64,000 nt of DNA from a virus, in the IMG/VR virus record IMGVR_UViG_3300049149_000013, positions 2,647 through 66,646 of that record; one strand, given 5' to 3'. The first letter of the stretch is position 1; each line of letters begins with the position of its first letter. Shown piece after piece: positions 3,766-26,605 of the stretch. The notes under the pieces are model-generated. The model saw only the letters and a list, made by a program, of their open reading frames with translations, did no database searches and was not told the origin of the DNA. Made by a program: the position numbers and the translations under genes.

Positions 3766-4059
3766 ATGCTTATTCGACAGCTCCGTTCAGTCTGGGTTCC
3801 TTATGAGGTCCTTCACGAGGCCGATCCTAGGGGAAAGCTCTGCAACGACATCCCGAGGTTCTGCCACCCCGAGGAGTGCAAGGACTTCATTCAGTTCAAC
3901 GGGAGCAAGCTCAGGAAGCGATTAATTCAATTCCGTGAGCACTATGAAGAAGAATTCAAAAAGCAATATGCAATGGGAGTGGGCCGCACGATTAAATGGC
4001 GGTACGGCCCATCCTATGCAGGCATCACTCACGACCGGCACGGTGATCGTGATTACTAG
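3766..4059 (+). CDS. Hypothetical protein
   Basis: Starts 1 nt after the previous stop and converges on the late arm. Confidence 0.5.
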   Translation: MLIRQLRSVWVPYEVLHEADPRGKLCNDIPRFCHPEECKDFIQFNGSKLRKRLIQFREHYEEEFKKQYAMGVGRTIKWRYGPSYAGITHDRHGDRDY

Positions 4060-5315
4060 ACCTTAAAGCTTCCCAGCCGTTCCTTCGACCGGTTAATCGA
4101 TTGATTGATATTACGCATTGCTCCAGGTAGCGGTATGCGCGGCCTGCGAGCACCAGGGAACCCCGCATGTTGCCCTGCCATCGGTCCGCTTATTAGGCTT
4201 TGCAGGGGTGAAGGCGGACGCATCATTTGCCCGGGCATCTGGCCTGGCAGCGTCGGCATTCCTCCGGGGGGCGATATCCTACCGCCTCGTGCCCTCATCC
4301 CAGCGCGCATTCCCTGGAACGGCATCGGACGCATCATGCCAGGATGCACCATCGGTGGGCGCATTGCCGGAGCACGCCCGATACCTCCCTGCTGCGCTGC
4401 CGCTAGTTGTGGGCCTAGCTGACTAAGCATGCCACCTGCCATCGGTGGGCGAACGCCTCCAGCCGCCACACCGCCCGGGCCTAGCTGGAAGGGATTACCA
4501 CCCGTAACATTACCCATGCCACTAGGTCCGCCCGCAGGACCCGCATTCCATGCCCCCCCTGGACCAAATCCTTGCATCGGTCCCGCGCCTCCCGCTCCTG
4601 CCCCCATTATGCTACCTATATTACCAAATGCTCCACCACCGGATACCGGCCCCGCCTGCGGTCCACCAGGAGGAGTTGGCGTAGGCGGAGGAGACATCAT
4701 TCCACCGAGTGCTCCGCCACCTCCCGGCGGCATCTGTACGGGTCCACTAAACCCACCGCGCATGCTAGGTGGCAAGTTATTATTCTGCTGAATAAGCGAA
4801 GACCAGAGACTAGGCGGAATGCCCGTAGGTGGGGGTTGATTCGGATCTGCGTACCCGAAGCTCCCCGGACCCTGCGGCACCGCTGTACCTGCTCCACCAG
4901 CTCCTCCGAACAAACCTCCAAAGCCCGTAGCACCAGGATTAGCATTCTTAAGGTTAGCGATCATGCTAGCCAGATCGGGTGTAGCCTGCTGAGGAGGCTT
5001 ATATCCTGGTTGAGCCATAGGAGACCTAGGATCGAGCGTACTGCCGAAATACCCAGGACTACCGGGACCGGATGTCGGGAAGCCCCCGCCACCAGTAGGA
5101 GGTTGATTTAGAGCGGTACCTGCGGCTCCGAGACCGGCAGCCATACCGCCTAACTGATACTTCTTGCGGCCTTTCATTGCGCGACTTAACATAGCCGATC
5201 CTTTATCAGCTTGGTTGAATTCTGACGATACTTTCTGTGGTGGGCAGGATTCGTAGCCAGCACCATGCGAGCATGCTGCCATAAACCGTGCCTGCTCCGG
5301 TGTCTTGCTAGGCAT
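4056..5315 (-). CDS. Gly/Pro/Met-rich putative internal virion protein
   Basis: Last gene of the late arm; MPSKTPEQARFMAA N-terminus; YQLGG and ARGG motifs; low complexity. Confidence 0.7.
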   Translation of the reverse strand: MPSKTPEQARFMAACSHGAGYESCPPQKVSSEFNQADKGSAMLSRAMKGRKKYQLGGMAAGLGAAGTALNQPPTGGGGFPTSGPGSPGYFGSTLDPRSPMAQPGYKPPQQATPDLASMIANLKNANPGATGFGGLFGGAGGAGTAVPQGPGSFGYADPNQPPPTGIPPSLWSSLIQQNNNLPPSMRGGFSGPVQMPPGGGGALGGMMSPPPTPTPPGGPQAGPVSGGGAFGNIGSIMGAGAGGAGPMQGFGPGGAWNAGPAGGPSGMGNVTGGNPFQLGPGGVAAGGVRPPMAGGMLSQLGPQLAAAQQGGIGRAPAMRPPMVHPGMMRPMPFQGMRAGMRARGGRISPPGGMPTLPGQMPGQMMRPPSPLQSLISGPMAGQHAGFPGARRPRIPLPGAMRNINQSINRSKERLGSFKV

Positions 5316-5995
5316 TACTTTAAATCCTTCGGGTCAAAAACCGCGAGTGAGTTTAGATCATTCCTACCTGCTAGTTCGTCAGTTCCCATAAAATCCCGGT
5401 AATAGGCTGAATCATAACCTAACCCTTGCAAACGTTCTTGCATCTTCAGCAACTCGGGCGTACTCAGATTAATACCCATTGTAATCGATCTACGGGGCAG
5501 ACGGTCTATGTAAGTAAACCCTCGACTTGGTTCCCATTCAGGATCAGCAGCCAGGAACTTAGCTAGATTCTGTCCACTAGGCGCGAAGCGATCCGCGCGT
5601 TCCATTACGGCTTGTCGTAGCTGAGGATTATCCGAAAGCGCTGTCGAGAGCATATCATGGTAAAGGTCCCTTCCCATATTCCCAGGCAAGAGGGAAAGTG
5701 GATTTGATACATTAGGGTTAACCTCGAACACCTTATAACCTCGACCCCGATCCGCCGCTATCGCCGCTGCATGCTCGGGATGCTCCGCCAAATGCACAGC
5801 TCCAGGCAGAAGTGTGCCTCGTTCTCCAGGTATAATTCTAGTAAAGGTAGTAGGATCTGTTTTTCCCCCATGATACCATGGATGGCTCTGGATCTCCTCT
5901 AGTAACTGAGCTAGTCTCTCAGCTACGTTTACCTCGCCTCCGCCCGCGAAGTAACCCCCTAGCAGGACCACCCTGCGCCATTGCCGGTTCCTCAT
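5315..5995 (-). CDS. ADP-ribosyltransferase-like (ART-PolyVal-type) domain, probably the frameshifted C-terminus of the upstream large protein
   Basis: WYHG...GAVHLA...NPL...GYDS...LAVFDPKDLK pattern; FAGGGEVNVAERLAQL near its start matches MAGGGEIGLAERLAQL in the upstream ORF. Confidence 0.6.
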   Translation of the reverse strand: MRNRQWRRVVLLGGYFAGGGEVNVAERLAQLLEEIQSHPWYHGGKTDPTTFTRIIPGERGTLLPGAVHLAEHPEHAAAIAADRGRGYKVFEVNPNVSNPLSLLPGNMGRDLYHDMLSTALSDNPQLRQAVMERADRFAPSGQNLAKFLAADPEWEPSRGFTYIDRLPRRSITMGINLSTPELLKMQERLQGLGYDSAYYRDFMGTDELAGRNDLNSLAVFDPKDLK

Positions 5996-8900
5996 CCTCA
6001 GGCTGCGGCTGATACTCCTTCTGCATCCTGCCCAGATCCCGATTCGTCATCCTGCCCATAGCCTGCATAGCTATCTCACGACCCAGGGGAGCTTCCATCT
6101 CCTCCTGAGCCTCCGCTACATCGTCCGAGGTAAAGTGAATCGGCGCAGACGGACCGAAATAATTCTCATGCTTACCTATCAGCTCCTTCAGGCGCTCAAG
6201 CAGATCCCGATGAGCGTCTGCTCGCTGCTGAGTCTCTATCTCGTCATCGGACATTGCAGGCTCGGCGGGCGGAGGAGGTTCCCCCGGCTGACCTCCAATA
6301 GTCGGATGTTGCAGGGTGTGAAGTCTATTCCTCGTAGCTTCCCAGTCTATCCCACCACCCTCAGCCATCCCTCCCCCGCCCCCATCATCTACTCCCGAGG
6401 TTCCCGGCACGGTCGTATAGAGCGCAGGCGAACCATACATGTGTTTAAAGTGACCGCCTCTCGCCTGACCCGGAGGCTTATCATAGATGCTAGTCCAATT
6501 GCGGCTCTGAATATCCTTAGCATGCTCTGCCATCTCAGGACTGGTCTCGGCTACCTGGGTAAAGATATCCTGAGGCTTTGCTTCTGTTGCCCAGCCCCGG
6601 TTAAGGACATCGGCAGCATGGGCCTTCATCTCCGGGCTTGAGGTAAGTTTCTCCCAGAGCTGGGCGAGCCTCTCAGCAAGGCCGATCTCTCCACCCCCTG
6701 CCATGCGGGGAGGCGGCGCGCTCTGCCCCATAAACATTCGACGCTGGAGCAACTGATCTAAGAAGTTTTCCTCGGTCTCAGGAGGTGGGGTCTGCCCGCC
6801 TTCCGCCATGCCTGCCGTTACCGGACTTCCGCCCGGGAAGTGAACTGTCTGACCTTCATCTAGGCCACGCAGATGCCGTTGATAGGCTTCGTCGCCAATC
6901 TCCTTCTGGATATCCTTGCCGACGCTGGTATCTTCCGGTTCAACCGAGTTCGGGTCCGGTCCCTGATGCCTGGCATGTTCGATCATTTGTTCGGGACGCA
7001 TCCGGCCTCCACCGCCTCCACCCCTAAGTCGGTCGAGCGCATCCCCTGCCGAGCCTATCAGCGCGTTAAGGCTACCCCATTCGGTAGCCATTGCCGGCCA
7101 ACTACGCAACGGGGAAGCTCCTAGCCAACCCATTAAATGAGAACCTGCACCTTCGGCAGGAAGGCCCGGGATCGGGATAACCGCTGAAGGAGCTTCCTCA
7201 AAGAAATGTTGCTTAAACGTATGGGCTGGCGGTAATCCTACGCTACGTTGGATCTTCCCCTCAAGAGCCTCGGCCCGCTCACCTGCCGCTTTCGATCCAG
7301 GCATCATCGAGGAGATTGGATGACCCTTCGATTCGTCACCTAGGTTAGCTCCCAGCAATCTAGCCGGTAGTGTGGCATATCCCTCGAATAGCCGAGCGAG
7401 GGCATGAGGTGTCGAGTATAGCCTATCGAGTATCAGGGGAGGTGTAGACCCCGGACCGGGATGGAGAATATCCCCTCCTGCCACCAGATGACCTTGCGGA
7501 TCAGTACCATAAACCTGTTTTGCCAACGAGGTAACGGCACGCGCCGCAAGTTCCCCGGGAGGATTATCGGGGTCATCGTACTTAGCTGGATCTGTTCCAG
7601 CTGCCTTCATCTCCGCTGCCGCCTCGGCCTCTCTCTCAGCAATTGATCTCTGAACTCTATTTCTCAAAGCCGTAAGCGATGATTCGTAATCCGGCTGATA
7701 GTTCGCCGGGATACCCTCGTTACCCTTAATCGTTGGTCCGGTAATAAGGTCTGACAGGGAAGGACCACCTTCCTGGAAATGCTTGCGGGTCATCGGATTA
7801 GAGGTATAGGTTGGCTTCTGCTCCTCCTCGGATGCCTGCGCCAGCATATACTCCTGCATTTTCTTCAGAAGTTCCTTATGAGCTTCCTGTTCTTCGCCAG
7901 GTACTTGCCTCTCACTCTCAACTAGAACATTCTCAAGACTCGGCTGATCCCCTGTTGTCGAACCACCCTCGGCATGCTCGGTTACGGCAGGAGTCTTACC
8001 GGCTGCGGCCATACGGTCGTAGATTAGATCCTCAGGGTTAATACCGGACTGCTGCAACTGATTGCCTACCTGGCGGATATGGGCGGCATCGGCATCCTGG
8101 ATTTCCCCGACCGGCGTACGCATGAAATCATGGTACCTTTCGAGGAAGTGCTCAATAAGCTCGGAGAGGTTCACTGCGGTCTTAACCTCACCGCCCCCGG
8201 CCATGCCATGCTGCTGCCGTTCGTCCTCGCGCGAGACGAGGTAATCAGTGCTATACCCTAAGTGATGAAGGGCATGTCTTAGATGGTCCACTGGACCTCC
8301 GTGCTTCCAGACCGGTACGCCTGCTGCCTTAACGCGCGCTAAGTCATCTGGATTAGTCATATCAATTGCATTCTCAAATGTCTTTTTACGAAGTGGGTTC
8401 TGTTCAGGAGGCGCTTTATAAGTTTGCTCGTACCAGTCCCAGAGCGGACGCATCGACTCACCGGCCTCGCGGGATGCTTGCTCCCAGTTATAGTGCATAT
8501 TCTGGTAAGCACGGGAACGCTGCATATCCGCCCATGCCTGCTGATTCTTCGGCTCATCTTCTACCCAGTTATCCTCCTCATCGTAGTGGCCACTCTCCCG
8601 AGGACGGTACTGCATTTCTACATCATTAATTTCTTTGGCATGTTTGCGCATATCCGCAATAGCCTTATAAAACTTATCCTCCATCGTTCCTTCTGCGGCG
8701 GGAACGTCTTCACCAGTTTCGGGATTAAAGGCACCTAATCCCATCTCCTCACGTTTCTCTACTGGAACCTTATCAACCATATGCTGCCAGAGCCGTTCGT
8801 ACTTGCCTGGAACCTCGTACCTATTCCATTCATCGCCCTCGGCGTTTAGAACCTGGCGGATATAGTTATCAAGTGTCGGGTGGGCCCAATCGGGCACGTC

Positions 8901-10394
8901 CGCTAGTTCCTGTCCCCTAAAGTCGCCTATCTCCCGGGTAAAGGGTCGAGGAGGCCAGTTTAGATTCGGTTCTGGCTTCGCATGCAATGTAACGTCCATC
9001 GGGCGGTATGGTAACTGAAAGCGCTGTGCTAGATCCTTAAGTACCGAGGGATAACTGATATTATAGTTATAGTTCTGCCCCGTAGCTTGATCAGCACTAA
9101 AGCGACGGCCATAGAACGCATTCTGGTCGTTACCGCTCGCAAGTCCTAGTCCCATATCACCGGTATGCGCAGCGTCGGCCAATGCTTTGCGCATTTCCAG
9201 ACCGACAAACCCCTGAGTAGTCTTAAACGGTGTATCGGGGATTTTCGCTCTAAGCCGCGCCACCTCATTCTTCAAGGCATTTAATCTCGCCTGAAGATTC
9301 GGATCAGTATTGAATTGTAGATTTCCTTCCTGATCGAAATAAGGGGTCTGTGCCCGACGCATAACCGCATTCGGTTCACGGAAAAGCTCCATCCCCTCAA
9401 TCTCTCTGATCCGAGCTAGATCCGCAGGAGTTTGGTAACCGACCTTAGTAGCCTTCGACGCCTCACGGAGCTTTTGAAGTTCCTGCCAACGAGGGTCCTC
9501 AGCGAGTATATTCCCGCCTCGGGCACCCTCCGTTCCAAACCGGAGTGCATCGGTAATAACGTCACGCGCCCAAGGACCGGCCTGAAAGCCTTCACGATCA
9601 TCGAACATATTCGTCATCAGGTCCTGGGCCAGATCCTGCATGCGAGTAAGATTCTCAGGGGTAGGAGCCCACCCTCCTGGCTTAATCGCTTTCTGGTGCC
9701 GGTCGGATTGGATCTCGTCTATCACCCTCATCGTGCGGCCTTCGGGTGTACCGGTAGCACCCATACCGGTGCTCTCGCCCCAGAGTGGCAGACGGTTGCT
9801 GCGGTTCCAGGAGATATCCCGATCCGAGAAGTGGCTTTGATACTGACCGAAGTCCGGCGAGCGTGTCACGTCGAGCTGGTAAGCCTTAGCTCCATAAGGC
9901 GACGCTGGATTACCCGGCCCACTATCACCCCGCTCTGCATGGGAATACTCGGAATACTGAGGGCTTCCTGCCGTAACACGCCGCTGACCGCCTGCACCGG
10001 TAGTAGAAACACCTGCCTGGGCTAGTTGCCTCTGCTCGCGGGTCGTACCAGCTTGGGCAAGATCAGAACCGAGCTGTACGTTCAGGTTCGGAGCATTCTG
10101 CATATAGAGCTGGAGAATATCAGCTCGACTTACCTTCTGATTAGGCTTCAGTGTCTGGAGATAGGGAACAATCTTTGAATAATCAAGCTCCTCCTTCTTC
10201 AGAGGAAAATCTACACCGGCTCGGCTTGCGATCTGCCCGGGCTTAAGATAGCCAGCCCACTCCTGAGCAGTCATCGCCTCGCGGGGCGAATTATCGATCA
10301 GACCCTTTAGGGTAGAGAACATCCCATAGCGCGGGACCTTGCCGGTCAGATACTCGGCAAGATGCTCAAGCTCGGGTAAATTGATCTTAGGCAT
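5919..10394 (-). CDS. Large polyvalent / internal virion (ejection) protein
   Basis: About 1490 aa; likely start MPKINL right after the upstream stop; IDEIQSD motif of large polyvalent phage proteins; about 9 xAxGG-type motifs. Confidence 0.8.
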   Translation of the reverse strand: MPKINLPELEHLAEYLTGKVPRYGMFSTLKGLIDNSPREAMTAQEWAGYLKPGQIASRAGVDFPLKKEELDYSKIVPYLQTLKPNQKVSRADILQLYMQNAPNLNVQLGSDLAQAGTTREQRQLAQAGVSTTGAGGQRRVTAGSPQYSEYSHAERGDSGPGNPASPYGAKAYQLDVTRSPDFGQYQSHFSDRDISWNRSNRLPLWGESTGMGATGTPEGRTMRVIDEIQSDRHQKAIKPGGWAPTPENLTRMQDLAQDLMTNMFDDREGFQAGPWARDVITDALRFGTEGARGGNILAEDPRWQELQKLREASKATKVGYQTPADLARIREIEGMELFREPNAVMRRAQTPYFDQEGNLQFNTDPNLQARLNALKNEVARLRAKIPDTPFKTTQGFVGLEMRKALADAAHTGDMGLGLASGNDQNAFYGRRFSADQATGQNYNYNISYPSVLKDLAQRFQLPYRPMDVTLHAKPEPNLNWPPRPFTREIGDFRGQELADVPDWAHPTLDNYIRQVLNAEGDEWNRYEVPGKYERLWQHMVDKVPVEKREEMGLGAFNPETGEDVPAAEGTMEDKFYKAIADMRKHAKEINDVEMQYRPRESGHYDEEDNWVEDEPKNQQAWADMQRSRAYQNMHYNWEQASREAGESMRPLWDWYEQTYKAPPEQNPLRKKTFENAIDMTNPDDLARVKAAGVPVWKHGGPVDHLRHALHHLGYSTDYLVSREDERQQHGMAGGGEVKTAVNLSELIEHFLERYHDFMRTPVGEIQDADAAHIRQVGNQLQQSGINPEDLIYDRMAAAGKTPAVTEHAEGGSTTGDQPSLENVLVESERQVPGEEQEAHKELLKKMQEYMLAQASEEEQKPTYTSNPMTRKHFQEGGPSLSDLITGPTIKGNEGIPANYQPDYESSLTALRNRVQRSIAEREAEAAAEMKAAGTDPAKYDDPDNPPGELAARAVTSLAKQVYGTDPQGHLVAGGDILHPGPGSTPPLILDRLYSTPHALARLFEGYATLPARLLGANLGDESKGHPISSMMPGSKAAGERAEALEGKIQRSVGLPPAHTFKQHFFEEAPSAVIPIPGLPAEGAGSHLMGWLGASPLRSWPAMATEWGSLNALIGSAGDALDRLRGGGGGGRMRPEQMIEHARHQGPDPNSVEPEDTSVGKDIQKEIGDEAYQRHLRGLDEGQTVHFPGGSPVTAGMAEGGQTPPPETEENFLDQLLQRRMFMGQSAPPPRMAGGGEIGLAERLAQLWEKLTSSPEMKAHAADVLNRGWATEAKPQDIFTQVAETSPEMAEHAKDIQSRNWTSIYDKPPGQARGGHFKHMYGSPALYTTVPGTSGVDDGGGGGMAEGGGIDWEATRNRLHTLQHPTIGGQPGEPPPPAEPAMSDDEIETQQRADAHRDLLERLKELIGKHENYFGPSAPIHFTSDDVAEAQEEMEAPLGREIAMQAMGRMTNRDLGRMQKEYQPQPEDEEPAMAQGGPARGLLRGRRRGKRS

Positions 10395-10395
10395 C

Positions 10396-13300
10396 TTACT
10401 GACCCTGCTGCGGAGTAGGCGTAAGCGCTGCCGCTCCACCGCCTGCCGTAGCTCCACCGATTAAGCCAGAGACGTTCTTCTGGCTCCGTAACGCATCAGC
10501 TGTCTGCTGGAGTCTGCTCATCTTCTCCCTAGCATGAGGATCGTTCGCCATAGTTCCCATCGTCTCGGAAATCTCACCTGCCTTGCCCGGGCGCATTAGC
10601 TGACCTCGGACCATCTGACCTATCGAGAGCGGCTGCTGGCTAATATTCAAACCTGCCTCTCCCGCTCTGATCAAACGTCGGCCGGTTCCAAAGACCTCTG
10701 CCTGGCGGGTAAGAGAATCGATAAACCTCTGACCCTCCGCTGGATTATCGAAGATCGCCATAATCTTCGCCTTCAGGTTCGGGTTAGCTACTACAGCCAT
10801 CGCGGTATTACGGTTAGCTCCCATATTGCCAATCTTCTGCATAATGCCTTCGGCTACACCGGTGCGGTACGCATCCCGGGCACTCCAGTCGAGCTTGCCC
10901 ATCAGTTGCTTGACTTCCTCAGGAGTCAGCTTATCGAAGGTCTCCCGGCCACCGCGCAGTGCATCCATAATATCGAGGTCGCCCGCGTACTGATCGCGAG
11001 CCTCCCGGTAGGGACTGCGGCCATTCGGCAGCGTAGTAGCCTGATCGAGTTCCTTTACCAGGTTAGAGCGCATATCACGCAGGATACGACCCTGCGGCGA
11101 CGCCTGGTAGTTAATGCCGGTACCCTCCTCCTGGAGAATCATCTGATCGAGTGCCCGCTTGACTTCATCAAGGTATTGCAGGGTAGGATTCTGCACCATG
11201 CCTGCTACGTCTGGGCGACCGATAGGTATCATCCTATCCTGCATCATACGAAAGGCCCGCGCCGACGCTTCTTGACCGCTAGGAGTATTCAGGATCTGGG
11301 AGAGCGTCTGCGTCTTGACACTTGGGAATTGTGAAAATGCCTGATCATAAAGCGGCGCGGCTTTAGTATAGAGAGCATTCCTCAGCTCCTCGGTCTTGGC
11401 GTAGTAATCATCGGGCTTAAGACCCCGGTTGACTATATCGCCAGTCCCACCTGTCATACCTGCCTCGCGCTCCTGCAAGGCTCCGAGCAAAGCATTCGAC
11501 TCTGGCACATCCTTGCGTATCGCTGCCGAGGTCAATCCAACCGAGCGTGGCCCCGCAGCCTCGGCTACCGTTGACGGTATGCCCATACGAGCGTCTTTCG
11601 CCAGAATATCAGCAATTTCCCTGACGCCTCCTTCTGGTCTATCGAGATTCATCGCCTCAAGCGACTTACGCACTCCTGGCCCCGCAGAACGGGTAAGCTC
11701 GTTGGTAAGCCTCAGGAGAGGAGCGGAAGCACCACGACCGGCACCCGCAAGCAGTGGGCCAAGCATCGCACCGCTGGCTGCTCCCGGGAGAAAGTCATCG
11801 CCACCTCCCATCTCGCCTGATATCCCGCCGGTCAGTGCGCCTACTCCCGAGGCAGTCAGGTGAGGATGACGAGCCATAAAGCGTGCTGCCGCAGCTGGCC
11901 TGCGCAGGGCTGCCAGACCTGCTGCCGTAGTAGCGCCAGCCCCCAGAGCTTCCCCTAGTAAGTTTTCAGCCGGGGAATCCGGATCTTCTGGACGCCCCGC
12001 AGCCTTAAGTGATAATCCCTGGATAAGAGCATTCAGAGAGTTCCTTATCTCGGGATCAGCCTGCTCGGGCTGTCCACCTTCCTGCATACCTCTTTTAAGC
12101 CTATCTAATTGCTCCTTGAAAGTTTGTTCAAACTGTTCCTCATAGCGTTGAAGTTCGGTATCTTCTTCCCGGCGTTTCTGGTCGGCTTGACGAGCCTCAT
12201 AATCTGAAAGATGCTCAACCGTCTGTTCGTTAGGATCGTAAACCCTAGATAGGTTCTTGGAAGGCCCCTGTTCCTCTACCTCACCGCCTTCCGCCATACC
12301 TCCGGCAGGCTGCGTATCCGAAGGCTGAGGATGATAGCTAACGTCTGGCTCCTGGGTCCCGGGAGGTCCCGCACCTGGCGCACCTACTTCCTCGGTCTGA
12401 ACCTGGGGATTCTGATTCCTAAAGTAATCCTTCCAGTCCATCCGCTTCGGATTTAGAGGCTTCAGTCCATTCTTCAGGAATGGCGCACTATGGTCGAAGA
12501 TCGGGTTATCATTAATATACGTATCCCAAGCCTGAGTAGCACCCGCCAATGTTCGGTGGAGTCCGAAATATGCCTGTTCAAACTGGTGCCGTTGCAGATT
12601 ATTATTCAGGGTAATGCGTAGAGCCTCGGCAATGGCATCGTTGGTAGCCTTGGGCTTATCCGTACCGATCATTGCTGACTGGAAGAGACCGAGGTCGCGG
12701 TTTGTAACGCGCCCGAAGCCTTTCGAGGGAATAGCCTGCGCAACAGTATCGGCAGCGAGCTTATCCATCGTCTGAATGCTAGACTTCAGGTGAGCTACGA
12801 TTGAAGGAGGCCAGATATTAATACCACCCTCAGTACCTACCTCGGCACCGGCACCGTGCGGCCCCGCGTGTATCCCTCCGATACGTACTGGAGCGATCAT
12901 AGGACCTGTAGCCGTCGTGGTATTTAACTGCTGAAACTCATCAAGGTTCCGCAGAGCTTTCATCATCTGCTCATCGTTCGCACCGTAGTCAGCAAACTGC
13001 TTATCAGCGGCTTTCTGTTCGCTACTATAGAAGTTCTGGCGTTGCTTAGTTGACATATGCACAACATCGGGCATGCCAACGGGATTAAACGGCACGCCCG
13101 CCAGATTCGCATTCTCAAGCTTCTCCTCAGGGGTTAGTTGGGTCTCATCGATACCTGCCCGCGCCTTAGCCTCCGCAATGGCCGTATCGTTCAACTGCTT
13201 AACCAATGCACGGTAGGCAGGGCTAAATCCACTACCTGGATCCCCGGGAACTAGATAAGCCCGTGGACCGAGCTGATCTAGCGCTATCTTACCGAAGCTG

Positions 13301-13938
13301 GACTGAGGCTTCATCCCCGCCTGTTGCGCAGGGGTAGTAGCCATACGACCGAGAGCGGTCATAGCCGACTTGCCCAGCTCGGTCTCTTGCCGTTGCATCA
13401 TCTCCAGGAGCTTGCGCTTACCCTCGGCGGTCTGAGTATCGATACCCCTGATCTTCTCGGCTAGGTCAGCACCACCGAGAGTCTGGAGGTATTGCATGAT
13501 TGCCGTGCGCTGTTGTGCCGCCTGAGCTGCCTCCTCTTGAGCGATCTGTCCTAACTGAGACTGAAGCGCTCCATACATGCCTACGCCCGGGACCGGCTTC
13601 GCTGCCGCAGCCTGGATCTGGAGAGCCTTCTCATGCTCGCTCGGAACACCATACTTCCAGTAGTTTTGCAAAAGAATCTGCTGGGCATTTCTAAGTGCTG
13701 CCTTGGAAGCCTCGGCGCTGCTCTCTATGTCCTTACCGATCTTCTCGGTTTCACCCTCATGCTTGCCGATACGAGACAGGATCTTGCGAGCTTCGTCCTG
13801 AGCTTCCTTGGTCGTAGTCGCCTGCGTAGCGCCAGCCGGGATAACGTCGGGATCACCCTCACCCCGAATACTCTCAAGTGCCGAGCGTACGTCATCGGGC
13901 GATGCCGTCTGGGAAACAATGTCTTCTGGTGTTGACAT
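10396..13938 (-). CDS. Large internal virion / DNA injection protein
   Basis: 1180 aa, helical with Gly/Ala-rich hydrophobic stretches; position matches the P22 gp16/gp20-type ejection module. Confidence 0.75.
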   Translation of the reverse strand: MSTPEDIVSQTASPDDVRSALESIRGEGDPDVIPAGATQATTTKEAQDEARKILSRIGKHEGETEKIGKDIESSAEASKAALRNAQQILLQNYWKYGVPSEHEKALQIQAAAAKPVPGVGMYGALQSQLGQIAQEEAAQAAQQRTAIMQYLQTLGGADLAEKIRGIDTQTAEGKRKLLEMMQRQETELGKSAMTALGRMATTPAQQAGMKPQSSFGKIALDQLGPRAYLVPGDPGSGFSPAYRALVKQLNDTAIAEAKARAGIDETQLTPEEKLENANLAGVPFNPVGMPDVVHMSTKQRQNFYSSEQKAADKQFADYGANDEQMMKALRNLDEFQQLNTTTATGPMIAPVRIGGIHAGPHGAGAEVGTEGGINIWPPSIVAHLKSSIQTMDKLAADTVAQAIPSKGFGRVTNRDLGLFQSAMIGTDKPKATNDAIAEALRITLNNNLQRHQFEQAYFGLHRTLAGATQAWDTYINDNPIFDHSAPFLKNGLKPLNPKRMDWKDYFRNQNPQVQTEEVGAPGAGPPGTQEPDVSYHPQPSDTQPAGGMAEGGEVEEQGPSKNLSRVYDPNEQTVEHLSDYEARQADQKRREEDTELQRYEEQFEQTFKEQLDRLKRGMQEGGQPEQADPEIRNSLNALIQGLSLKAAGRPEDPDSPAENLLGEALGAGATTAAGLAALRRPAAAARFMARHPHLTASGVGALTGGISGEMGGGDDFLPGAASGAMLGPLLAGAGRGASAPLLRLTNELTRSAGPGVRKSLEAMNLDRPEGGVREIADILAKDARMGIPSTVAEAAGPRSVGLTSAAIRKDVPESNALLGALQEREAGMTGGTGDIVNRGLKPDDYYAKTEELRNALYTKAAPLYDQAFSQFPSVKTQTLSQILNTPSGQEASARAFRMMQDRMIPIGRPDVAGMVQNPTLQYLDEVKRALDQMILQEEGTGINYQASPQGRILRDMRSNLVKELDQATTLPNGRSPYREARDQYAGDLDIMDALRGGRETFDKLTPEEVKQLMGKLDWSARDAYRTGVAEGIMQKIGNMGANRNTAMAVVANPNLKAKIMAIFDNPAEGQRFIDSLTRQAEVFGTGRRLIRAGEAGLNISQQPLSIGQMVRGQLMRPGKAGEISETMGTMANDPHAREKMSRLQQTADALRSQKNVSGLIGGATAGGGAAALTPTPQQGQ

Positions 13939-13939
13939 A

Positions 13940-14953: not shown

Positions 14954-14954
14954 T

Positions 14955-17285
14955 TTACTTTCTCCCCTTACCCATATAGGCAGCCGGGGGCTTCGCCTTC
15001 ATAAACTGTTTACCTTTCGACATCGGCTTGGCAGCACTGCGGCGCAGGTTCTCACGCAATTGATCAAGCTTCGCTGCGCCTGCCTTATTAGAGCCATTGC
15101 CTAGCAGACTTACGGTATTCGCATCAAACACGTACTCGCCATCGGAAAGCTGTGCCGGGATATTGTCGCTAGTCCCGTCGCCTGGGCCTACGGCATGATG
15201 CTGCACAGCAGAGTCAAACTCGGGCATTAGCGCATCTAATGCAGAACCTCCTCGGGCACGGCCAGGAGGCATACGAGGGCGAGGTACCGGCATCTGTGGC
15301 GCAGGAGCAGCGGGGGGTGTAGCAGCTGTCGGCGGTGGAACTAGACCGGTCATCTGCGTCATTGGCATCTGGTTATTCTGGAAGAACTGAGCCTCCGGAC
15401 GCTGGCCGTACGTATACCAATCCTGCAAGCTCATCGGTCCGCCGCCCGGAAGATTCGATGGTGCCATATTCTGAGTGCGGTTAAAGATCGGTGCCCGTGG
15501 CGCAGTCGCCCCTTGCGTCATCCCCGGGGCAGCAGTCGGGGGTTTCAAGTTGGTATGCGGTCTGCCAAGCCCGAATAATGGCGCAACCGCAGCCCCAGCC
15601 TTCAGAGCATTCAGCATACCGGTGATACCACCCTGGCCGGTAAGGTTCTTCCAAGCATTCTGAAGATCTCCCTTAACGGTATGACCAGCCGGTGCATTCG
15701 GGTCCGGACTCTGGCCGACTATCTTTCCATTCTCATCTATAATCTGACCGTCCTTCGTAACCATCAGACCTGAGTTAGGGTCCCAGGCACTTCCATTCGG
15801 CAGATATACTATATCACCAGGTTCTTCGCCTCCGCCACCGCCTCCTCCTCCTCCTCCCCCTGATGGAAGAGTAGGACCCATCTCGGGAGGTGGAGCCGAG
15901 GGTTCCGCAGCCAGGTAGTAGGGAACGTCTCCCCCGCTATCACTAGAGAAGTCCCCACCAGTATCCCCACCGTCCTGGAAATGCTTGCGAGCATAGCGTG
16001 CGGCACCCCGTTCGAGATGATCGAGGCCGGATCGCTTCTTCATAAGACCACCTTCTGCACGTAAACCGAATTCAGGGGCCTGCGCCATCGCCGGTTGAGG
16101 CGTAGGACTATAACTCATTGACTGAACCGTAGGAGCGGCCATGCGAGCCGCCTGTTGAGGATTGCCTGCCCAGAATGCTTGAGTAGCTGCCTGCGTCGCA
16201 GCCGGTTGCGCCGCCTGGGTACTGCCCCAACCGGAGAACTTCGTTCCCGCCTGAGGTGACCAGCCCTGATTCTCGTAAGCACCCATAAGGCTCTGGATAG
16301 AACTCTGTAATGCCGGAGTCTCAAGAGTACCCTTAGAAGTACGAGCATTCGGGTCCCAGACATTACCCTTAGACGCTAACCAGGGATCGATAACCTTCGT
16401 CCACTGATCCTGAATCGACATATTCGGATTAATCTGACCAGAGGCGACAGCCTTATTAATCTCCTGTCCCATCTGGTTCATCATATTCTGCTCACCCATC
16501 CTACCGAAGATTCGTTCAACTGCCTCCGAATGACCAGGAGTAAGGTTTCTAGCATCCATAATACCGGCGAGGTTCGTCATAGCCTGCTGCGGACTTATTA
16601 CATTCTGACTAACCATCTGAGCTTGTTGTTGTGGATTCAACTTATTGAACTGCTGGGCAAACGCATTAAACTGACCGGTCTCCGGATCTACCGCACCACC
16701 ACCGAAGGCTGAGCTAAGTGCTCCGACCCCACCACCGATAAGCCCGCCAATGAGAGTCCCGATTCCCGGCACGATGGAACCGATAGCGGCACCTGCCTCG
16801 GCACCCTGTAGCGCGTCTGAACCCGTACTCCCCGACTTCCAGTTACTAATGGCATTATAGACGGCAAGCGGCGCAAGAACATAACCACCCATCGTAGACA
16901 TCAGGGGATTATTGAGCAGCAGTCCCGCTCCTTGAAGTCCTGAACCTAATGCCTGTCCGTAACCCTGAAATCCTCCTCGCTGTAATCCTTGGATAACGCC
17001 GAGCGCATCGAGCGCACCGGTCGCACCCATATTAAGATTCTTCGCCGTGCTCGGATCAAAACCCAAACCAGTAAGCGCACTGCCTGCCTTACCCCAGTTC
17101 TGAGTACCGAGCTTCGCTAGATCTGCGGCAGCACCTATATCCCCGGTAAAGCCTCCCCGCTCGATATTGCCATAGAGACCCGCAGCGGTTCCAGCCGCAC
17201 CTAACCCTGGGCCTAATGCAGTCCCTTTGCTAAGAGTACCGCTCAGATTGAGCAGTGCCCGTTCTCTTGGTGTCATGAAAGCCAT
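14955..17285 (-). CDS. Internal virion protein with a glycine-zipper region and a TMP-like C-terminal domain
   Basis: GAAIGSIVPGIGTLIGGLIGG glycine zipper; C-terminal GPGDGTSDNIPAQLSDGEYVFDA. Confidence 0.75.
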   Translation of the reverse strand: MAFMTPRERALLNLSGTLSKGTALGPGLGAAGTAAGLYGNIERGGFTGDIGAAADLAKLGTQNWGKAGSALTGLGFDPSTAKNLNMGATGALDALGVIQGLQRGGFQGYGQALGSGLQGAGLLLNNPLMSTMGGYVLAPLAVYNAISNWKSGSTGSDALQGAEAGAAIGSIVPGIGTLIGGLIGGGVGALSSAFGGGAVDPETGQFNAFAQQFNKLNPQQQAQMVSQNVISPQQAMTNLAGIMDARNLTPGHSEAVERIFGRMGEQNMMNQMGQEINKAVASGQINPNMSIQDQWTKVIDPWLASKGNVWDPNARTSKGTLETPALQSSIQSLMGAYENQGWSPQAGTKFSGWGSTQAAQPAATQAATQAFWAGNPQQAARMAAPTVQSMSYSPTPQPAMAQAPEFGLRAEGGLMKKRSGLDHLERGAARYARKHFQDGGDTGGDFSSDSGGDVPYYLAAEPSAPPPEMGPTLPSGGGGGGGGGGGEEPGDIVYLPNGSAWDPNSGLMVTKDGQIIDENGKIVGQSPDPNAPAGHTVKGDLQNAWKNLTGQGGITGMLNALKAGAAVAPLFGLGRPHTNLKPPTAAPGMTQGATAPRAPIFNRTQNMAPSNLPGGGPMSLQDWYTYGQRPEAQFFQNNQMPMTQMTGLVPPPTAATPPAAPAPQMPVPRPRMPPGRARGGSALDALMPEFDSAVQHHAVGPGDGTSDNIPAQLSDGEYVFDANTVSLLGNGSNKAGAAKLDQLRENLRRSAAKPMSKGKQFMKAKPPAAYMGKGRK

Positions 17286-21466: not shown

Positions 21467-21467
21467 A

Positions 21468-21677
21468 TCACTTCGCCGGTGGTGTTGTCGGTGCTACTGC
21501 GGGCGGCGCTGTTGCAGCTACGGGCTGATCAGGAATAAAGATCATATGCAGGACCGCAGCTAATGCCGTTATCATTGGGACATACATCGAAGTCTTACCC
21601 GAAGCAAGCAACAAAACAGATAACGAGTTTAGGAAATGGTCTCCATTCGACTTAAACCATTGCGTAAGCTTATCCAT
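21468..21677 (-). CDS. Small membrane protein, possible holin
   Basis: 69 aa with two short hydrophobic segments and a Pro/Ala tail. Confidence 0.45.
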   Translation of the reverse strand: MDKLTQWFKSNGDHFLNSLSVLLLASGKTSMYVPMITALAAVLHMIFIPDQPVAATAPPAVAPTTPPAK

Positions 21678-24556: not shown

Positions 24557-24559
24557 GGA

Positions 24560-25633
24560 TTACCTCGTATAGTTCCAGATGCGCGGCTGTAACCACGTTG
24601 GTGCTCCGTCGGATTCAGACGCCCAGGCTCGCGCAAGCTGCTTATCAGCTTCCGGCCCAAGGAACGCCAGGACTTCCGGCTTAACTTCGGGAATCTCCAT
24701 AGCCAGATTACGCGCCAGCTCAGTCGTTATCGCTAATAGCCAGCGTTGCGGAACCTCAATGGAGACTGTCAGATCGGGACCTACATCCTGTATATATCGG
24801 CTAACGTAGAGAACAAACTGGTTAAATGTAAACTGTAACTGCGGTGCAGGCCAGACCGTAACCTGCGGCTGCTGAAGTTGCTTGTCAAACCACATCTGAA
24901 CCGGTCTGCCAGGGAAGAACTTATCCGGCAGGTTAGCGTAATCATCCATATTGATTTTCGCTACCGGTATCTCACTCGGCGTAGTCTCAAAGACTAGTTC
25001 AACGATATCGAGCGTTGTCGTTAAGCCAGCCGAGATACGATAATAGAGAAAACCACTCTCGGGCACTCCCTGGATATCCAGCCAGATCCACTGATTCTGC
25101 ACTACTGCCTGATTATTTACCGTCGCTAGTACCGTCCAAGTAACACCATCGTTCGACGCCTGCCAGGTATAACTCCAAGTCTGCGAAACGTTCGGCAGAA
25201 TACCATAGATCACCGCCTGAGCATTAGCAGGTAACTGAATCTGAATAAATCCGTTAGGAGCTACCAAGGTGCAGGCAGTAGTTAATGAACCATCGAAAGC
25301 GTAATCGGGTCTGCCGCTGGGCGAAGAAACGCTCCCAGTCGCTAACCGAGTAGAAGTCCGCAAATTGCAACTCAATACATCGATGACGTCCGTGTTCAGT
25401 GGTATATTCTGAACCGAGTCGTAGATCGGGTAGATCTGTTTCTGCTTGCACCATAGAGGGATACCTTCGTTACCCAGGGTGGAAAGATGCAGGTACAATA
25501 GCTGTTTCGCAATCTCGATGTACTCTTGCGTAATCTGCTGCGGCGCGAGCTTACACCGACCAAAGGCACGGTCAATCATATCCCCTATCGTAAAGATAGT
25601 GGTTGAGATTGTGCCGCTGGTAGTAACAGGCAC
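24560..25633 (-). CDS. Virion structural protein (connector-like, with a discoidin-like insert)
   Basis: TTSGT N-terminus; AFDG...QASNDGVTWT F5/8-type insert; GRPVQMW...VWPAP. Confidence 0.65.
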   Translation of the reverse strand: MPVTTSGTISTTIFTIGDMIDRAFGRCKLAPQQITQEYIEIAKQLLYLHLSTLGNEGIPLWCKQKQIYPIYDSVQNIPLNTDVIDVLSCNLRTSTRLATGSVSSPSGRPDYAFDGSLTTACTLVAPNGFIQIQLPANAQAVIYGILPNVSQTWSYTWQASNDGVTWTVLATVNNQAVVQNQWIWLDIQGVPESGFLYYRISAGLTTTLDIVELVFETTPSEIPVAKINMDDYANLPDKFFPGRPVQMWFDKQLQQPQVTVWPAPQLQFTFNQFVLYVSRYIQDVGPDLTVSIEVPQRWLLAITTELARNLAMEIPEVKPEVLAFLGPEADKQLARAWASESDGAPTWLQPRIWNYTR

Positions 25634-26605
25634 TTACTTGCCTCCGCGTTGGATTAACTCCCGCATACCCTTATGACCCCTCGGAGCCTCACTCTCCAAG
25701 TGCTCACTCATCTCTCTAGAATGACCACCCTTATGGTAGAGCGCTCCACCAGCGGCCAGCCGGTTAATCGTTCCACCGGTCGCATAGTTCGGCGGAATTA
25801 CCTTGGTATTATCGTGAATATGCCCGCCCTTAGCCTTATGCAGACCTTTCAGGGTTTTAGCCAGAGCCGCCCGCCGTCGCGTGGTAGGGTTAGACGAATG
25901 AGCCGCCTTCGCCAGCTTGGCAGCCGGAATCTTCTTACCCTGAGGAACTCCCAGAGTACGGTGCAAGGCTCCAGGATGCTTGATTGCTCCCTGAATCCAT
26001 TTGCCGCCTTTCGCCAGCTTATTACGGGTCTCACCGGTCTCGCCACAGGAACCACCCTTCGCCAGCCTATCCCGGGTCCTTCCCGGCTGGCCACGAGTAC
26101 CGAAGCCGCCCGCAACCCGATGAGCGGTAAAGCGGTGAGAGTCCTGCACCTTGCCAGCCTTACCAGCCAGGTTCTTCGGGTAGCTCTGATGCTCCGATTT
26201 AACGACCTTACCACCCTGGTAGTAATGCTTATGAACGTGGAAATGCCTTGCCCTGCCACCACCACCGTAGCCGGGGTTTAGCGGTGCTCTACCACCATGC
26301 TCGGTCTCGTTTACGGTCGAGGGTACTTCTCGGTGAACTGCGGCATGCCCCACATGGTGTTGTCCATCGTTAGCATTACCATGAACGGTAAGATCGGTGA
26401 TGCGGTCAGGACCAGGGCCACGACCCTTAACCGGACTTGCATGACCGAAATCACGCTCGACGGATCCACCACCAGCCAACTTATTAACCAAGCCACCCGT
26501 AGCAAGCCGATGGCCGGGGTTTGACTTGCCAAAGGTACTAAACTGGGATGCCGGAACGTTATGATGTCCGGTAACCATCCGAGTAGTATTCTTAAAGCCT
26601 TTCAT
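25634..26605 (-). CDS. Basic His/Lys-rich core protein with about 12 xAxGG-type repeats
   Basis: Start MKGFKN overlaps the upstream stop (ATGA); contains the WIQGAIKHPGALH...KKIPAAKLAKAA segment. Confidence 0.75.
   Translation of the reverse strand: MKGFKNTTRMVTGHHNVPASQFSTFGKSNPGHRLATGGLVNKLAGGGSVERDFGHASPVKGRGPGPDRITDLTVHGNANDGQHHVGHAAVHREVPSTVNETEHGGRAPLNPGYGGGGRARHFHVHKHYYQGGKVVKSEHQSYPKNLAGKAGKVQDSHRFTAHRVAGGFGTRGQPGRTRDRLAKGGSCGETGETRNKLAKGGKWIQGAIKHPGALHRTLGVPQGKKIPAAKLAKAAHSSNPTTRRRAALAKTLKGLHKAKGGHIHDNTKVIPPNYATGGTINRLAAGGALYHKGGHSREMSEHLESEAPRGHKGMRELIQRGGK

What the first reader, a model, noticed from the sequence alone, without database searches (positions are those of the whole stretch)
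4056..26605. Shared x-A-x-Gly-Gly motif punctuating the internal virion proteins: candidate polyprotein-processing or packaging code
Seen in sequence: a [MFYLHR]-[AQ]-x-G-G motif, with close variants, recurs about 30 times in this set. The ~1490-aa protein has WKHGG, MAGGG x2, HAEGG, FQEGG, MAEGG x2, QARGG and MAQGG. The 1180-aa protein has MAEGG and MQEGG; the 776-aa protein RAEGG, FQDGG and RARGG; the 337-aa protein GARGG; the 419-aa protein YQLGG and RARGG; ORF 5315 FAGGG; and ORF 25634 about 12 copies. Motifs sit in low-complexity linkers between distinct segments, and I saw few comparable motifs in portal, MCP, TerL or the replication enzymes. Established: adenovirus AVP cleaves (M/I/L)XGG-X and ASFV pS273R cleaves after GG in core polyproteins; FAxGG motifs occur in siphophage tape measure proteins. 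Inference: this phage packages polyproteins that are cut at GG into separate cargo modules, or uses the motif as a capsid-targeting tag.
Basis: partly seen in the sequence, partly recalled or inferred. Interest (0 to 1): 0.9.

Follow-up and report, generated by a model that had tools for sequence, protein, structure and literature searches.

The report
Shared Ala-x-Gly-Gly motif in ejection proteins
A short hydrophobic-Ala/Gln-x-Gly-Gly motif recurs in the disordered linkers of this phage's injected virion proteins, and the same motif marks the one mapped maturation cut of a phage tape-measure protein (T5), so it may be a processing or recognition site.

Summary
Shuffles give 3.4-3.9. The other 73 ORFs of the window hold 5, against 3.4 expected.

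- The excess survives a control for Gly-Gly abundance (20 of 87 vs 6 of 104 GG sites, p 6e-4).
- It is selected at protein level, because the codons vary.
- It is conserved at matching positions in homologues of 23-51% identity.
- AlphaFold2 places the copies in low-confidence coil between helices.

The 776-aa protein is tape-measure-like. Its RARGG lies upstream of a module that is aligned with tape-measure proteins of lambda, T5, JBD30 and actinophages. In T5 pb2 the mass-spectrometry-mapped maturation cut falls after R1127, and the next residues are AEGG. That cut lies inside the motif but before the Ala, not after Gly-Gly.

No protease was found in the complete 66.6-kb genome (0 of 9 families). 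Processing would then depend on a host enzyme or on a protease I did not detect.

Tandem 9-residue repeats, and copies at protein termini, fit a non-cleaved docking motif equally well. The function is unproven.

The parts
14955..17285 (-). 776-aa tape-measure-like ejection protein. It has a Gly-zipper hydrophobic region (about aa 150-200). Motifs: LQRGG aa101 (16971-16985), RAEGG aa409 (16047-16061), FQDGG aa436 (15966-15980), RARGG aa676 (15246-15260). The last is followed by the module GPGDGTSDNIPAQLSDGEYV.
   Evidence: PHROG hits to tail lysin and tape-measure families over aa 19-256. tblastn with the C-terminal 117 aa found 42 phage records, among them Arthrobacter and Mycobacterium tape-measure proteins and Caulobacter phage GB2A 'tail length tape measure protein'. 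Module alignment with lambda H, T5 pb2, JBD30, Kukla and Zaria. Strict motif 4 vs 0.74 expected.
13940..14953 (-). 337-aa 'DNA ejection protein' homologue. Loose motifs WQQGG aa298 (14048-14062) and GARGG aa322 (13976-13990, 12 residues from the C-terminus).
   Evidence: phrog_4287, E 7e-6. Positional counterparts of similar size in L007/L009, L010 and L011 carry F/YAxGG 9-11 residues from their C-termini. No strict motif here.
10396..13938 (-). 1180-aa internal/ejection protein. Motifs MAEGG aa548 (12283-12297) and MQEGG aa618 (12073-12087), in the charged linker between the two halves.
   Evidence: No Pfam, PHROG or PDB match. MQEGG aligns in one column with Y/FQxGG in 5 of 5 homologues of 23-25% identity. 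Not significant on its own (2 vs 0.59, p 0.115).
5919..10457 (-). 1512-aa ORF. The likely protein is 1491 aa from M22 (start at 10394). The N-terminal ~700 aa form a conserved domain of unknown function. The C-terminal ~800 aa are helices and linkers. Motifs: WKHGG aa717 (8295-8309), MAGGG aa752 (8190-8204), HAEGG aa828 (7962-7976), FQEGG aa894 (7764-7778), MAEGG aa1217 (6795-6809), MAGGG aa1252 (6690-6704), QARGG aa1331 (6453-6467), MAEGG aa1364 (6354-6368), MAQGG aa1493 (5967-5981).
   Evidence: Strict motif 7 vs 0.59 expected, reached in 0 of 2000 shuffles. Seven homologues of 38-51% identity. Motif columns are shared by 8/8, 8/8, 7/8, 7/8, 5/8, 5/8 and 4/8 sequences; FQEGG and QARGG occur only in the window protein. 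AF2: all 9 copies lie in segments with pLDDT below 50. No Pfam, PHROG, PDB or Atlas lead.
5315..5995 (-). 226-aa ORF that overlaps the end of the 1512-aa ORF by 77 nt. FAGGG aa16 (5936-5950) is followed by an amphipathic helix similar to the MAGGGEI... module of the large protein.
   Evidence: BLASTP aligns its aa 16-32 with a repeat module of P0002 (E 0.018).
4056..5315 (-). 419-aa Gly/Pro/Met-rich protein (21.5% Gly). Motifs YQLGG aa53 (5145-5159) and RARGG aa341 (4281-4295).
   Evidence: The N-terminal 41-46 aa weakly match phrog_16759 and phrog_22033, a virion structural protein family. The motif count is not significant on its own (2 vs 0.68).
25634..26605 (-). Basic, largely disordered 323-aa protein (start M43 of the 365-aa ORF 25634-26731). 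Motifs (ORF numbering): LATGG aa76 (26492-26506), LAGGG aa85 (26465-26479), LAKGG aa223 (26051-26065), LAKGG aa239 (26003-26017), KAKGG aa299 (25823-25837), YATGG aa316 (25772-25786), LAAGG aa325 (25745-25759), IQRGG aa360 (25640-25654). It also has a His-rich hairpin and a small helical domain.
   Evidence: Strict motif 6 vs 0.33 expected. 404 homologues at E<=1e-3. The 120 proteins examined, window protein included, hold 466 strict motifs vs 29.4 expected, with consensus [YFMRK]-A-[KT]-G-G-[KT]-[VI]-N. The number of ATGGTINx units varies among the 58 aligned sequences, and GG pairs are among the few invariant columns. AF2 with the 58-sequence alignment: only aa ~202-256 are confident (pLDDT 93-96) and the repeats are coil.

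Best explanation
The repeated element is a genuine short linear motif. Its consensus is aromatic/Met/basic - Ala or Gln - x - Gly - Gly - x - Val/Ile. It sits in intrinsically disordered linkers and at the ends of modules in the proteins this podophage packages and ejects.

It is the same motif that opens the conserved C-terminal module of siphophage tape-measure proteins (lambda gpH FATGG and YATGG, T5 pb2 RAEGG, JBD30 FASGG and HATGG, actinophage KAAGG, RAGGG and FALGG).

Most likely it is the recognition site for limited proteolysis. At least some copies would be cut, above all RARGG aa676 of the tape-measure-like 776-aa protein. The cut would fall between the first residue and the Ala, as in T5 pb2 (R1127|AEGG). 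This would separate the giant ejection proteins into modules during virion maturation or after ejection. The protease would be a host enzyme, or a virion activity not recognisable by sequence.

Shown: the enrichment, the conservation, the predicted disorder, the alignment of the 776-aa C-terminal module with tape-measure proteins, and the coincidence of the T5 cut with the motif.

Inferred: that any copy in this phage is cleaved, at which bond, and by what.
For: 1. Enrichment and specificity.
2. Selection at protein level: the GG codon pairs vary, and GGAGG or AGGAG occurs in only 3 of 25 copies.
3. Conservation at matching positions at 23-51% identity, and recurrence in 8 related IMG/VR loci whose large proteins are 25-30% identical.
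4. Predicted disorder at the motif copies.
5. The 776-aa C-terminal module matches annotated tape-measure proteins. In the alignment with other tape-measure modules, the T5, lambda, JBD30, RW and actinophage motifs fall in one column; the window's RARGG does not.
6. T5 pb2: the published text states the cleavage site is 'after R1127', from LC-ESI-TOF-MS (PMC10038345, passages). My translation of the NC_005859 gene gives R1127 followed by AEGG. The 1219-aa protein has only 2 sites of the form .[AQ].GG. By my own arithmetic, chance coincidence is about 1%.
7. Lambda gpH loses a ~14-kDa C-terminal piece 'from the glycine-rich region'. The exact site and the catalyst are stated to be unknown (PMC12617516, passages). 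A cut at F733|A734 would give 79.8 + 12.5 kDa.
8. Host proteases do process ejection proteins: a GenBank note says the first 20 aa of P22 gp7 are removed by host OpdA. That site reads ...SYPE|KGGKGG, which is only a loose parallel.
9. No phage protease was found, which fits host-dependent processing.
10. Module boundaries track the motif: the MAQGG of the 1512-aa protein lies at a point where homologues P0002 and P0003 continue into an extra fused domain.
Against: - There is only one experimentally mapped site (T5). It is in a distant siphophage, and its first motif residue is Arg, so the coincidence could be trypsin-like chance.
- Nothing here shows that any protein of this phage is cleaved.
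- The ORF 25634 family has tandem 9-residue ATGGTINx units. If these were cut they would give nonapeptides, which seems pointless.
- The presumed counterparts of the 1180-aa protein in L007-L011 carry the motif at residues 5-7 (four of them were aligned). The presumed counterparts of the 337-aa protein carry it 9-11 residues from the C-terminus; that correspondence rests on gene position and size only. Cutting there would remove almost nothing.
- Every protein of the cassette carries at least one copy, which is what a shared tag would look like.
- The first motif position accepts aromatic, Met, Leu, His, Arg and Lys. That is broad for a single protease's P1 residue.
- In the nearest cultured relative, Caulobacter phage RW, the four cassette proteins hold only 2 strict motifs. 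Multi-copy use is therefore not general.
- In the window's 776-aa protein, RARGG lies about 22 residues further upstream of the GPG...GEYV module than in other tape-measure proteins.
Confidence: 0.4

Rival explanations
1. The motif is a non-cleaved docking or retention motif. It would be a multivalent short linear motif through which all ejected proteins, and tape-measure C-termini, bind a common partner. Candidates are the portal or tail lumen, one another, a chaperone, or a host envelope component met during ejection. The T5 cut next to the motif would then be incidental.
For: - All 7 cassette proteins in the window carry at least one copy in strict or loose form, and the same holds in loci L007-L011.
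- Copies sit at extreme N- and C-termini.
- Tandem arrays with variable copy number in the ORF 25634 family suggest binding through many weak contacts.
- Conservation extends to the Val/Ile two residues after GG.
- The copies are conserved yet predicted disordered.
Against: - No partner is identified.
- In lambda, the stretch of gpH that holds both copies (about residues 690-817) is not resolved in cryo-EM of the virion (PMC12617516). It is therefore not stably docked to a symmetric partner there.
- This reading does not explain why the T5 cut coincides with the motif.
- A capsid-targeting role does not fit tape-measure proteins, which are tail components.
Confidence: 0.3
2. One reading: polyproteins are cut immediately after Gly-Gly by a phage-encoded cysteine protease of the adenain or pS273R kind.
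For: - The consensus contains Gly-Gly and occurs in core or internal proteins, including a basic protein.
- Adenovirus and ASFV precedents, as quoted in the finding; not checked here.
Against: - Peptidase_C5, C39 and C48 give 0 matches at E<=1 in six frames of the complete 66.6-kb genome. No peptidase domain appeared in the 27 window proteins scanned with Pfam.
- The one mapped cut in a motif-bearing protein lies before the Ala, not after GG.
- The conserved hydrophobic residue would be at the fifth position before the cut, not the fourth.
Confidence: 0.05
3. The motif has no specific recognition function. It is a flexible hinge or helix-capping element, or a by-product of Gly/Ala-rich disordered sequence that spread by duplication of modules.
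For: - The proteins are Gly-rich (10-21% Gly).
- Several copies sit 1-8 residues before predicted helices.
- Some copies belong to duplicated modules, such as MAGGGE(V/I)...ERLAQL in the 1512-aa and 226-aa proteins.
Against: - The excess persists after conditioning on GG sites and in local shuffles.
- The flanking aromatic/basic residue and the Val/Ile after GG are conserved.
- The motif is kept in one alignment column at 23-25% identity while its flanks diverge.
- It recurs in unrelated tape-measure proteins.
Confidence: 0.12
4. The signal is at DNA level, for example an internal Shine-Dalgarno-like GGAGG or another nucleotide motif, and the peptide pattern is a side effect.
For: Gly-Gly codons can spell GGAGG, and Val/Ile/Met codons two codons later could serve as starts.
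Against: Only 3 of 25 copies contain GGAGG or AGGAG. Eleven different GG codon pairs are used. The amino-acid flanks are conserved.
Confidence: 0.02

Closest known systems
Maturation cleavage of siphophage tape-measure proteins (T5 pb2 to pb2* + pb2C; lambda gpH to gpH* + gpHC)
   Same: The motif is the same and opens the same C-terminal module. The T5 cut is mapped to R1127|AEGG. The lambda cut lies in the Gly-rich region that holds FATGG and YATGG. The window's 776-aa protein carries this module.
   Different: - Here the motif is multiplied: 22 strict copies spread over seven proteins, most without the downstream GPG...GE[FY]V module.
- The virion is podophage-like by its gene content (portal, SU10-type adaptor, no tail tube or sheath seen). 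The proteins would therefore be stored in or under the head, not in a tail tube.
- Cleavage is unproven here.
- The lambda site and catalyst are unknown.
Adenovirus AVP and ASFV pS273R processing of core polyproteins at Gly-Gly
   Same: A Gly-Gly-containing consensus recurs in internal virion proteins, including a basic one.
   Different: No such protease is encoded. The hydrophobic position is shifted by one. The only mapped bond in a motif-bearing protein lies four residues upstream of the GG|X position.
Capsid-targeting sequences of packaged proteins (T4 internal proteins; P1 DarB; passages of PMC9024508)
   Same: A short peptide signal shared by proteins that are packaged and injected.
   Different: Those signals are single and N-terminal. 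In the passages read, the P1 DarB signal lies within the first 30 residues, and the T4 signal is described as an N-terminal packaging signal. Here the motif is internal, multi-copy, and shared with tail-resident tape-measure proteins.
P22 gp7 N-terminal processing by host oligopeptidase A (GenBank note in NC_002371)
   Same: An ejection protein of a podophage is trimmed by a host protease next to a Gly-Gly (...SYPE|KGGKGG).
   Different: The sequence does not fit the motif (no Ala/Gln at -2). The cut is one residue from GG, and there is a single site.
Polyvalent proteins of phages and conjugative elements (Iyer et al. 2017; recalled, not read here)
   Same: Giant multi-module proteins delivered with the DNA.
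   Different: No Pfam domain of that set, or any other, was detected in the 1512-aa or 1180-aa proteins at E<=0.01, apart from one sub-threshold TetR_C_6 hit in the latter. A shared linker motif is not, to my recollection, part of that concept.

Membership tests
Tape-measure C-terminal module with the [hydrophobic/basic]-A-x-G-G motif (lambda gpH, T5 pb2, JBD30 and actinophage type) | Motif [FYMRK]-A-x-G-G at the start of the module | tested here: met
   RARGG at aa676 of the 776-aa protein. The equivalent motifs in RW, lambda, JBD30, T5, Kukla and Zaria fall in one alignment column. The window copy lies about 22 residues further upstream than the others.
Tape-measure C-terminal module with the [hydrophobic/basic]-A-x-G-G motif (lambda gpH, T5 pb2, JBD30 and actinophage type) | Downstream GPGTGxSD-x-[IV]P-x-x-LSxGE[FYH]V segment | tested here: met
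   GPGDGTSDNIPAQLSDGEYV in the 776-aa protein. tblastn gives 42 records, with E down to 3e-19 (Caulobacter phages) and 8e-8 (Arthrobacter tape-measure protein). This is met for that one copy only; the other 21 strict copies lack the segment.
Tape-measure C-terminal module with the [hydrophobic/basic]-A-x-G-G motif (lambda gpH, T5 pb2, JBD30 and actinophage type) | Gly-zipper hydrophobic stretch upstream of the motif | tested here: met
   aa ~150-200 of the 776-aa protein match tape-measure and tail-lysin PHROGs. In lambda and JBD30 the stretch lies directly before the motif; here it lies 200-470 residues before.
Tape-measure C-terminal module with the [hydrophobic/basic]-A-x-G-G motif (lambda gpH, T5 pb2, JBD30 and actinophage type) | Proteolytic cleavage at the motif in mature virions | not testable with these tools
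   Known only for T5. Testing it needs virion mass spectrometry.
Lambda-family tape measure (NCBIfam TIGR01541) | Profile match above the cut-off | tested here: not met
   Lambda gpH scores 448.7 bits. The 776-aa protein gives no TIGR01541 hit at E<=0.1.
GG|X polyprotein processing by a virus-encoded cysteine protease (adenain C5, Ulp1-like C48, C39 double-glycine peptidase) | The cognate protease is encoded by the virus | tested here: not met
   PF00770, PF02902 and PF03412 give 0 matches at E<=1 in six frames of the complete 66,646-bp record. The ASFV C63 and poxvirus C57 families were not searched.
GG|X polyprotein processing by a virus-encoded cysteine protease (adenain C5, Ulp1-like C48, C39 double-glycine peptidase) | Cleavage directly after Gly-Gly | not testable with these tools
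   The only mapped bond in a motif-bearing protein (T5) lies before the Ala.
Prohead-protease-dependent maturation of internal proteins (T4 gp21 / HK97 gp4 / ClpP-like / lambda gpC types) | A prohead protease gene in the head module | tested here: not met
   PF03420, PF04586, PF00574 and PF01343 give 0 matches. The ORFs between the scaffold-like gene and the major capsid protein gene have no Pfam hit. A divergent protease cannot be excluded.

The most novel reading that the evidence does not exclude
The ejection cassette encodes true polyproteins. Up to about 25 sites of the form hydrophobic|A-x-G-G would be cut by a host protease, or by an unrecognised virion protease. The products would be a score of cargo modules and, from the basic ORF 25634 family, small basic peptides. 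The same motif-protease pair would underlie tape-measure maturation across siphophages. That would predict the long-unknown lambda gpH cut at F733|A734 (or Y778|A779), and it would explain the host dependence of T5 tail-protein cleavage that the title of Zweig & Cummings 1973 suggests (seen only as a reference-list entry).
Probability: 0.2. Interest if true: 0.85.

Novelty: new variant of a known kind. Interest (0 to 1): 0.6.

Why it matters
Tape-measure cleavage has been known for lambda since 1974 and for T5 since 1973. [quoted passage not shown]

Linking the mapped T5 bond to a motif conserved in lambda, JBD30, actinophage tape-measure proteins and this podophage lineage gives a concrete prediction for the lambda site. 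The prediction can be tested with existing strains.

For uncultured podophages of this 60-67 kb lineage, the motif is a sequence signature that picks out the ejected proteins, including a widespread basic protein family with no annotation (404 homologues). If the copies are cleavage or docking sites, they define the module boundaries of giant injected proteins whose functions are unknown. They would also be natural insertion points for studying cargo delivery.

Tried and rejected
- Family and structure look-ups gave no functional lead. They covered Pfam, PHROG, NCBIfam and PDB sequence searches for the 1512-aa, 1180-aa, 226-aa and 419-aa proteins and ORF 25634. The ESM Atlas search used the 1512-aa N-terminal 700 aa and scored 0.86, below the lead level. 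Foldseek against the PDB with the ORF 25634 model had a best E of 2.3.
- tblastn of the 1512-aa protein against 50,697 phage records found no match.
- The AF2 model of the 1512-aa C-terminal 812 aa was poor (mean pLDDT 46.9; only 8 sequences in the alignment). I used it only for order versus disorder. Because 514 of 812 residues are below pLDDT 50, finding 9 of 9 motifs in such segments is only modestly beyond chance (about 0.016 by my arithmetic).
- I tested whether the 226-aa ORF is the homologue of the extra C-terminal domain fused in P0002 and P0003. BLASTP found only the short repeat module (E 0.018), so I rejected the idea. A frameshift joining the 1512-aa and 226-aa ORFs was considered but not tested.
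- A DNA-level or internal-start explanation was rejected on codon variety.
- Literature:
  - tape measure + 'GG motif', 2 papers, neither relevant.
  - motif strings FATGG, YATGG, FAKGG, FAEGG, MAEGG with 'phage'. 65 papers held at least 2 terms and 20 were listed. Judged from titles and abstracts only, none of the 20 dealt with this motif.
  - ejection protein, podovirus, proteolysis. PhiGT1 passages were read, with nothing on the motif.
  - tape-measure cleavage site. P1 and mEpimmI passages were irrelevant. The JBD30 paper only speculates on a cut at R1066 from a PeptideCutter prediction. The phiTE paper infers cleavage from copy number only.
  - I therefore found no printed description of this motif as a processing or docking signal. 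This rests on those five searches of open-access text only.
I could not see Fig. S5G, Fig. S8C or Table S3 of the T5 paper, which show the mapped site. I rely on the sentence in the main text and on a legend printed in the preprint.
I claim no specific binding pair, and RNA or DNA reads cannot show proteolysis.

Full report
**What the window is.** The window is bases 2647-66646 of a 66,646-bp virus record that CheckV rates 100% complete.
- Minus strand: TerL (35508-37034), portal (32656-35274), a GroES-like gene, a scaffold-like gene, the major capsid protein (27825-28745), ORF 25634, and tail genes including an SU10-type adaptor (20798-21466).
- After these comes a cassette of six genes, 17285 down to 4056, that encodes the proteins in the finding.
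- The nearest cultured relatives are Caulobacter phages RW, GB2A, RLK and KcrB (portal 42% identical). More distant are Roseobacter CRP-901/902 and Pelagibacter HTVC023P/027P.

**The observation.**
- The strict pattern [MFYLHR][AQ].GG occurs 22 times in the seven proteins (4,815 aa). Whole-protein shuffles give 3.44 and shuffles inside 30-residue windows give 3.87. None of 2000 shuffles exceeded 12.
- Three proteins carry the signal: the 1512-aa protein (7 vs 0.59), ORF 25634 (6 vs 0.33) and the 776-aa protein (4 vs 0.74). The 419-, 226-, 1180- and 337-aa proteins are not significant alone.
- The other 73 ORFs (15,487 aa) hold 5 vs 3.42 expected.
- Because the pattern was chosen after looking, I ran two unbiased checks. 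Among all patterns of the form a.bc, A.GG ranks first (25 vs 9.7, z 5.1). Among Gly-Gly sites only, 20 of 87 in the set carry the full motif vs 6 of 104 elsewhere (Fisher p 6e-4).
- The Gly-Gly codons vary: eleven codon pairs are used, and GGAGG or AGGAG occurs in 3 of 25 copies. Selection therefore acts on the peptide.

**Conservation.**
- *1512-aa protein.* It has seven metagenomic homologues of 38-51% identity. In their alignment the motif columns are shared by 8/8 (VWK[HTS]GG), 8/8 ([MFHK]A[ED]GG), 7/8, 7/8, 5/8, 5/8 and 4/8 sequences. FQEGG and QARGG are private to the window protein.
- *Distant loci.* Eight IMG/VR loci, whose large proteins are 25-30% identical to the 1512-aa protein, again show [FYMHR][AQ].GG.[VIL] in the proteins of the cassette and almost none in neighbouring genes.
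- *1180-aa protein.* Its MQEGG aligns in one column with Y/FQxGG in 5 of 5 homologues of 23-25% identity.
- *ORF 25634 family.* It has 404 homologues at E<=1e-3. The 120 proteins examined, which include the window's own, hold 466 strict motifs vs 29.4 expected. Many are tandem 9-residue units of the ATGGTINx kind whose number varies.
- *Against generality.* The four cassette proteins of Caulobacter phage RW hold only 2 strict motifs.

**Structure context.**
- AF2 on the C-terminal 812 residues of the large protein gave a poor model (mean pLDDT 46.9; 8 sequences). All 9 motifs fall in segments below pLDDT 50, and several lie 1-8 residues before a predicted helix.
- AF2 on ORF 25634 used a 58-sequence alignment. 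It gave one confident helical domain (about residues 202-256, pLDDT 93-96) and a His-rich hairpin. The motif repeats are coil of low confidence.
- The motif is therefore conserved but predicted disordered, which is the signature of a short linear motif.

**Link to tape-measure proteins.**
- The 776-aa protein has a Gly-zipper stretch that matches tape-measure and tail-lysin PHROGs.
- Its C-terminal 117 residues find 42 phage records by tblastn, many annotated as tape-measure proteins.
- Lambda gpH reads ...HF-ATGG... at 733 and ...GY-ATGG... at 778, just after its Gly-rich stretch. JBD30 has FASGG at 1019 and HATGG at 1081.
- Arthrobacter phage Kukla and Mycobacterium phage Zaria each have two copies of [KRF]AxGG followed by GPGT.TSD..PA.LS.GE[HFY]V.
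- A multiple alignment puts these motifs and T5 RAEGG in one column.

**The key datum.**
- Translating the T5 gene gives R1127 followed by A-E-G-G. The protein has only two .[AQ].GG sites in 1219 residues.
- The one mapped tape-measure maturation cut therefore lies inside the motif, before the Ala.
[quoted passage not shown] Residues ~690-817 are unresolved in the virion (PMC12617516, passages).
- A cut at F733|A734 would give 79.8 and 12.5 kDa, compatible with that description.
- P22 gp7 is a looser parallel. A GenBank note says host OpdA removes 20 residues, and the site reads ...SYPE|KGGKGG.

**Proteases.**
- Pfam found no peptidase in 27 window proteins.
- Six-frame searches of the whole genome were run with nine peptidase families: C5, C39, C48, S78, ClpP, S49, S77, NlpC/P60 and Prok-JAB. 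All gave 0 matches at E<=1.
- A divergent protease is not excluded.

**Reading.**
- I commit, at 0.4, to the motif being a recognition site for limited proteolysis, cut as in T5. The strongest case is the RARGG of the 776-aa protein.
- The main rival, at 0.3, is a non-cleaved docking motif. It is favoured by the tandem arrays, by the terminal positions (residues 5-7 of the 1180-aa counterparts; 9-11 residues from the end of the presumed 337-aa counterparts), and by the presence of the motif in every cassette protein.
- The two readings are not exclusive: one factor could bind all copies and cut some.

**Novelty.** The T5 cleavage site and the existence of conserved tape-measure C-terminal regions are known. 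I did not find in print that the T5 site is an instance of a motif shared with lambda, JBD30 and actinophage tape-measure proteins, or that a podophage lineage multiplies it across all its ejection proteins and a basic protein family. I rate this a new variant of a known kind.

Noticed in passing
window 1240-3517 (+): A complete phage genome carries two cell-envelope-type genes. One is a 440-aa protein with glycosyltransferase and Sulfotransfer_4 domains (E 3e-34). The other is a 216-aa protein ending in a PEP-CTERM sorting motif (E 1e-6). A PEP-CTERM protein in a phage hints at a host that has an exosortase.
   Followed up: no
window 5919-5995 (-): The 1512-aa ORF and the 226-aa ORF overlap by 77 nt, and each frame encodes a motif there (MAQGG; FAGGG). 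GAGG lies directly against the ATG of the 226-aa ORF. Homologues P0002 and P0003 instead continue in frame into a Tat-signal-like RRGFL...GGAGA stretch and an extra ~250-aa domain. The 226-aa ORF is not homologous to that domain. A programmed frameshift was not tested.
   Followed up: partly
window 25634-26605 (-), residues 121-131 of P0009: A His-rich segment (HFHVHKHYY) is nearly invariant across the 58 aligned family members (H123, V124, H125, H127, Y128). It is predicted as a beta hairpin. It may bind a metal.
   Followed up: no
window 8358-10394 (-), N-terminal ~700 aa of the large protein: A well-conserved domain with many invariant residues across 8 homologues (for example E227-I-Q-S-D-R-H-Q234, P386-D-T-P-F-K391). 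It has no Pfam, PHROG, PDB or Atlas lead. It is probably an enzyme or a channel-forming domain of unknown kind.
   Followed up: partly
window 4056-5315 (-): By eye, the Met/Pro/Gly-rich C-terminal half of the 419-aa protein resembles the C-terminal tails of some ORF 25634 homologues, such as P0035 and P0044, which end in ...RARGG.... This suggests modules are shuffled between the two families. It was not tested by alignment.
   Followed up: no
L002 (lambda) gpH aa 778-788; L015 (JBD30) tape-measure protein aa 1081-1091: A second motif copy with nearly the same continuation in two unrelated siphophages (YATGGYVGTPG and HATGGQIGTPA). It lies 45 and 62 residues after the first copy.
   Followed up: partly
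window 31043-31564 (-): A GroES/Cpn10-like gene lies just downstream of the portal gene in transcription order (Pfam E 1.3e-4, above the cut-off). Caulobacter phage RW has one in the same place.
   Followed up: no
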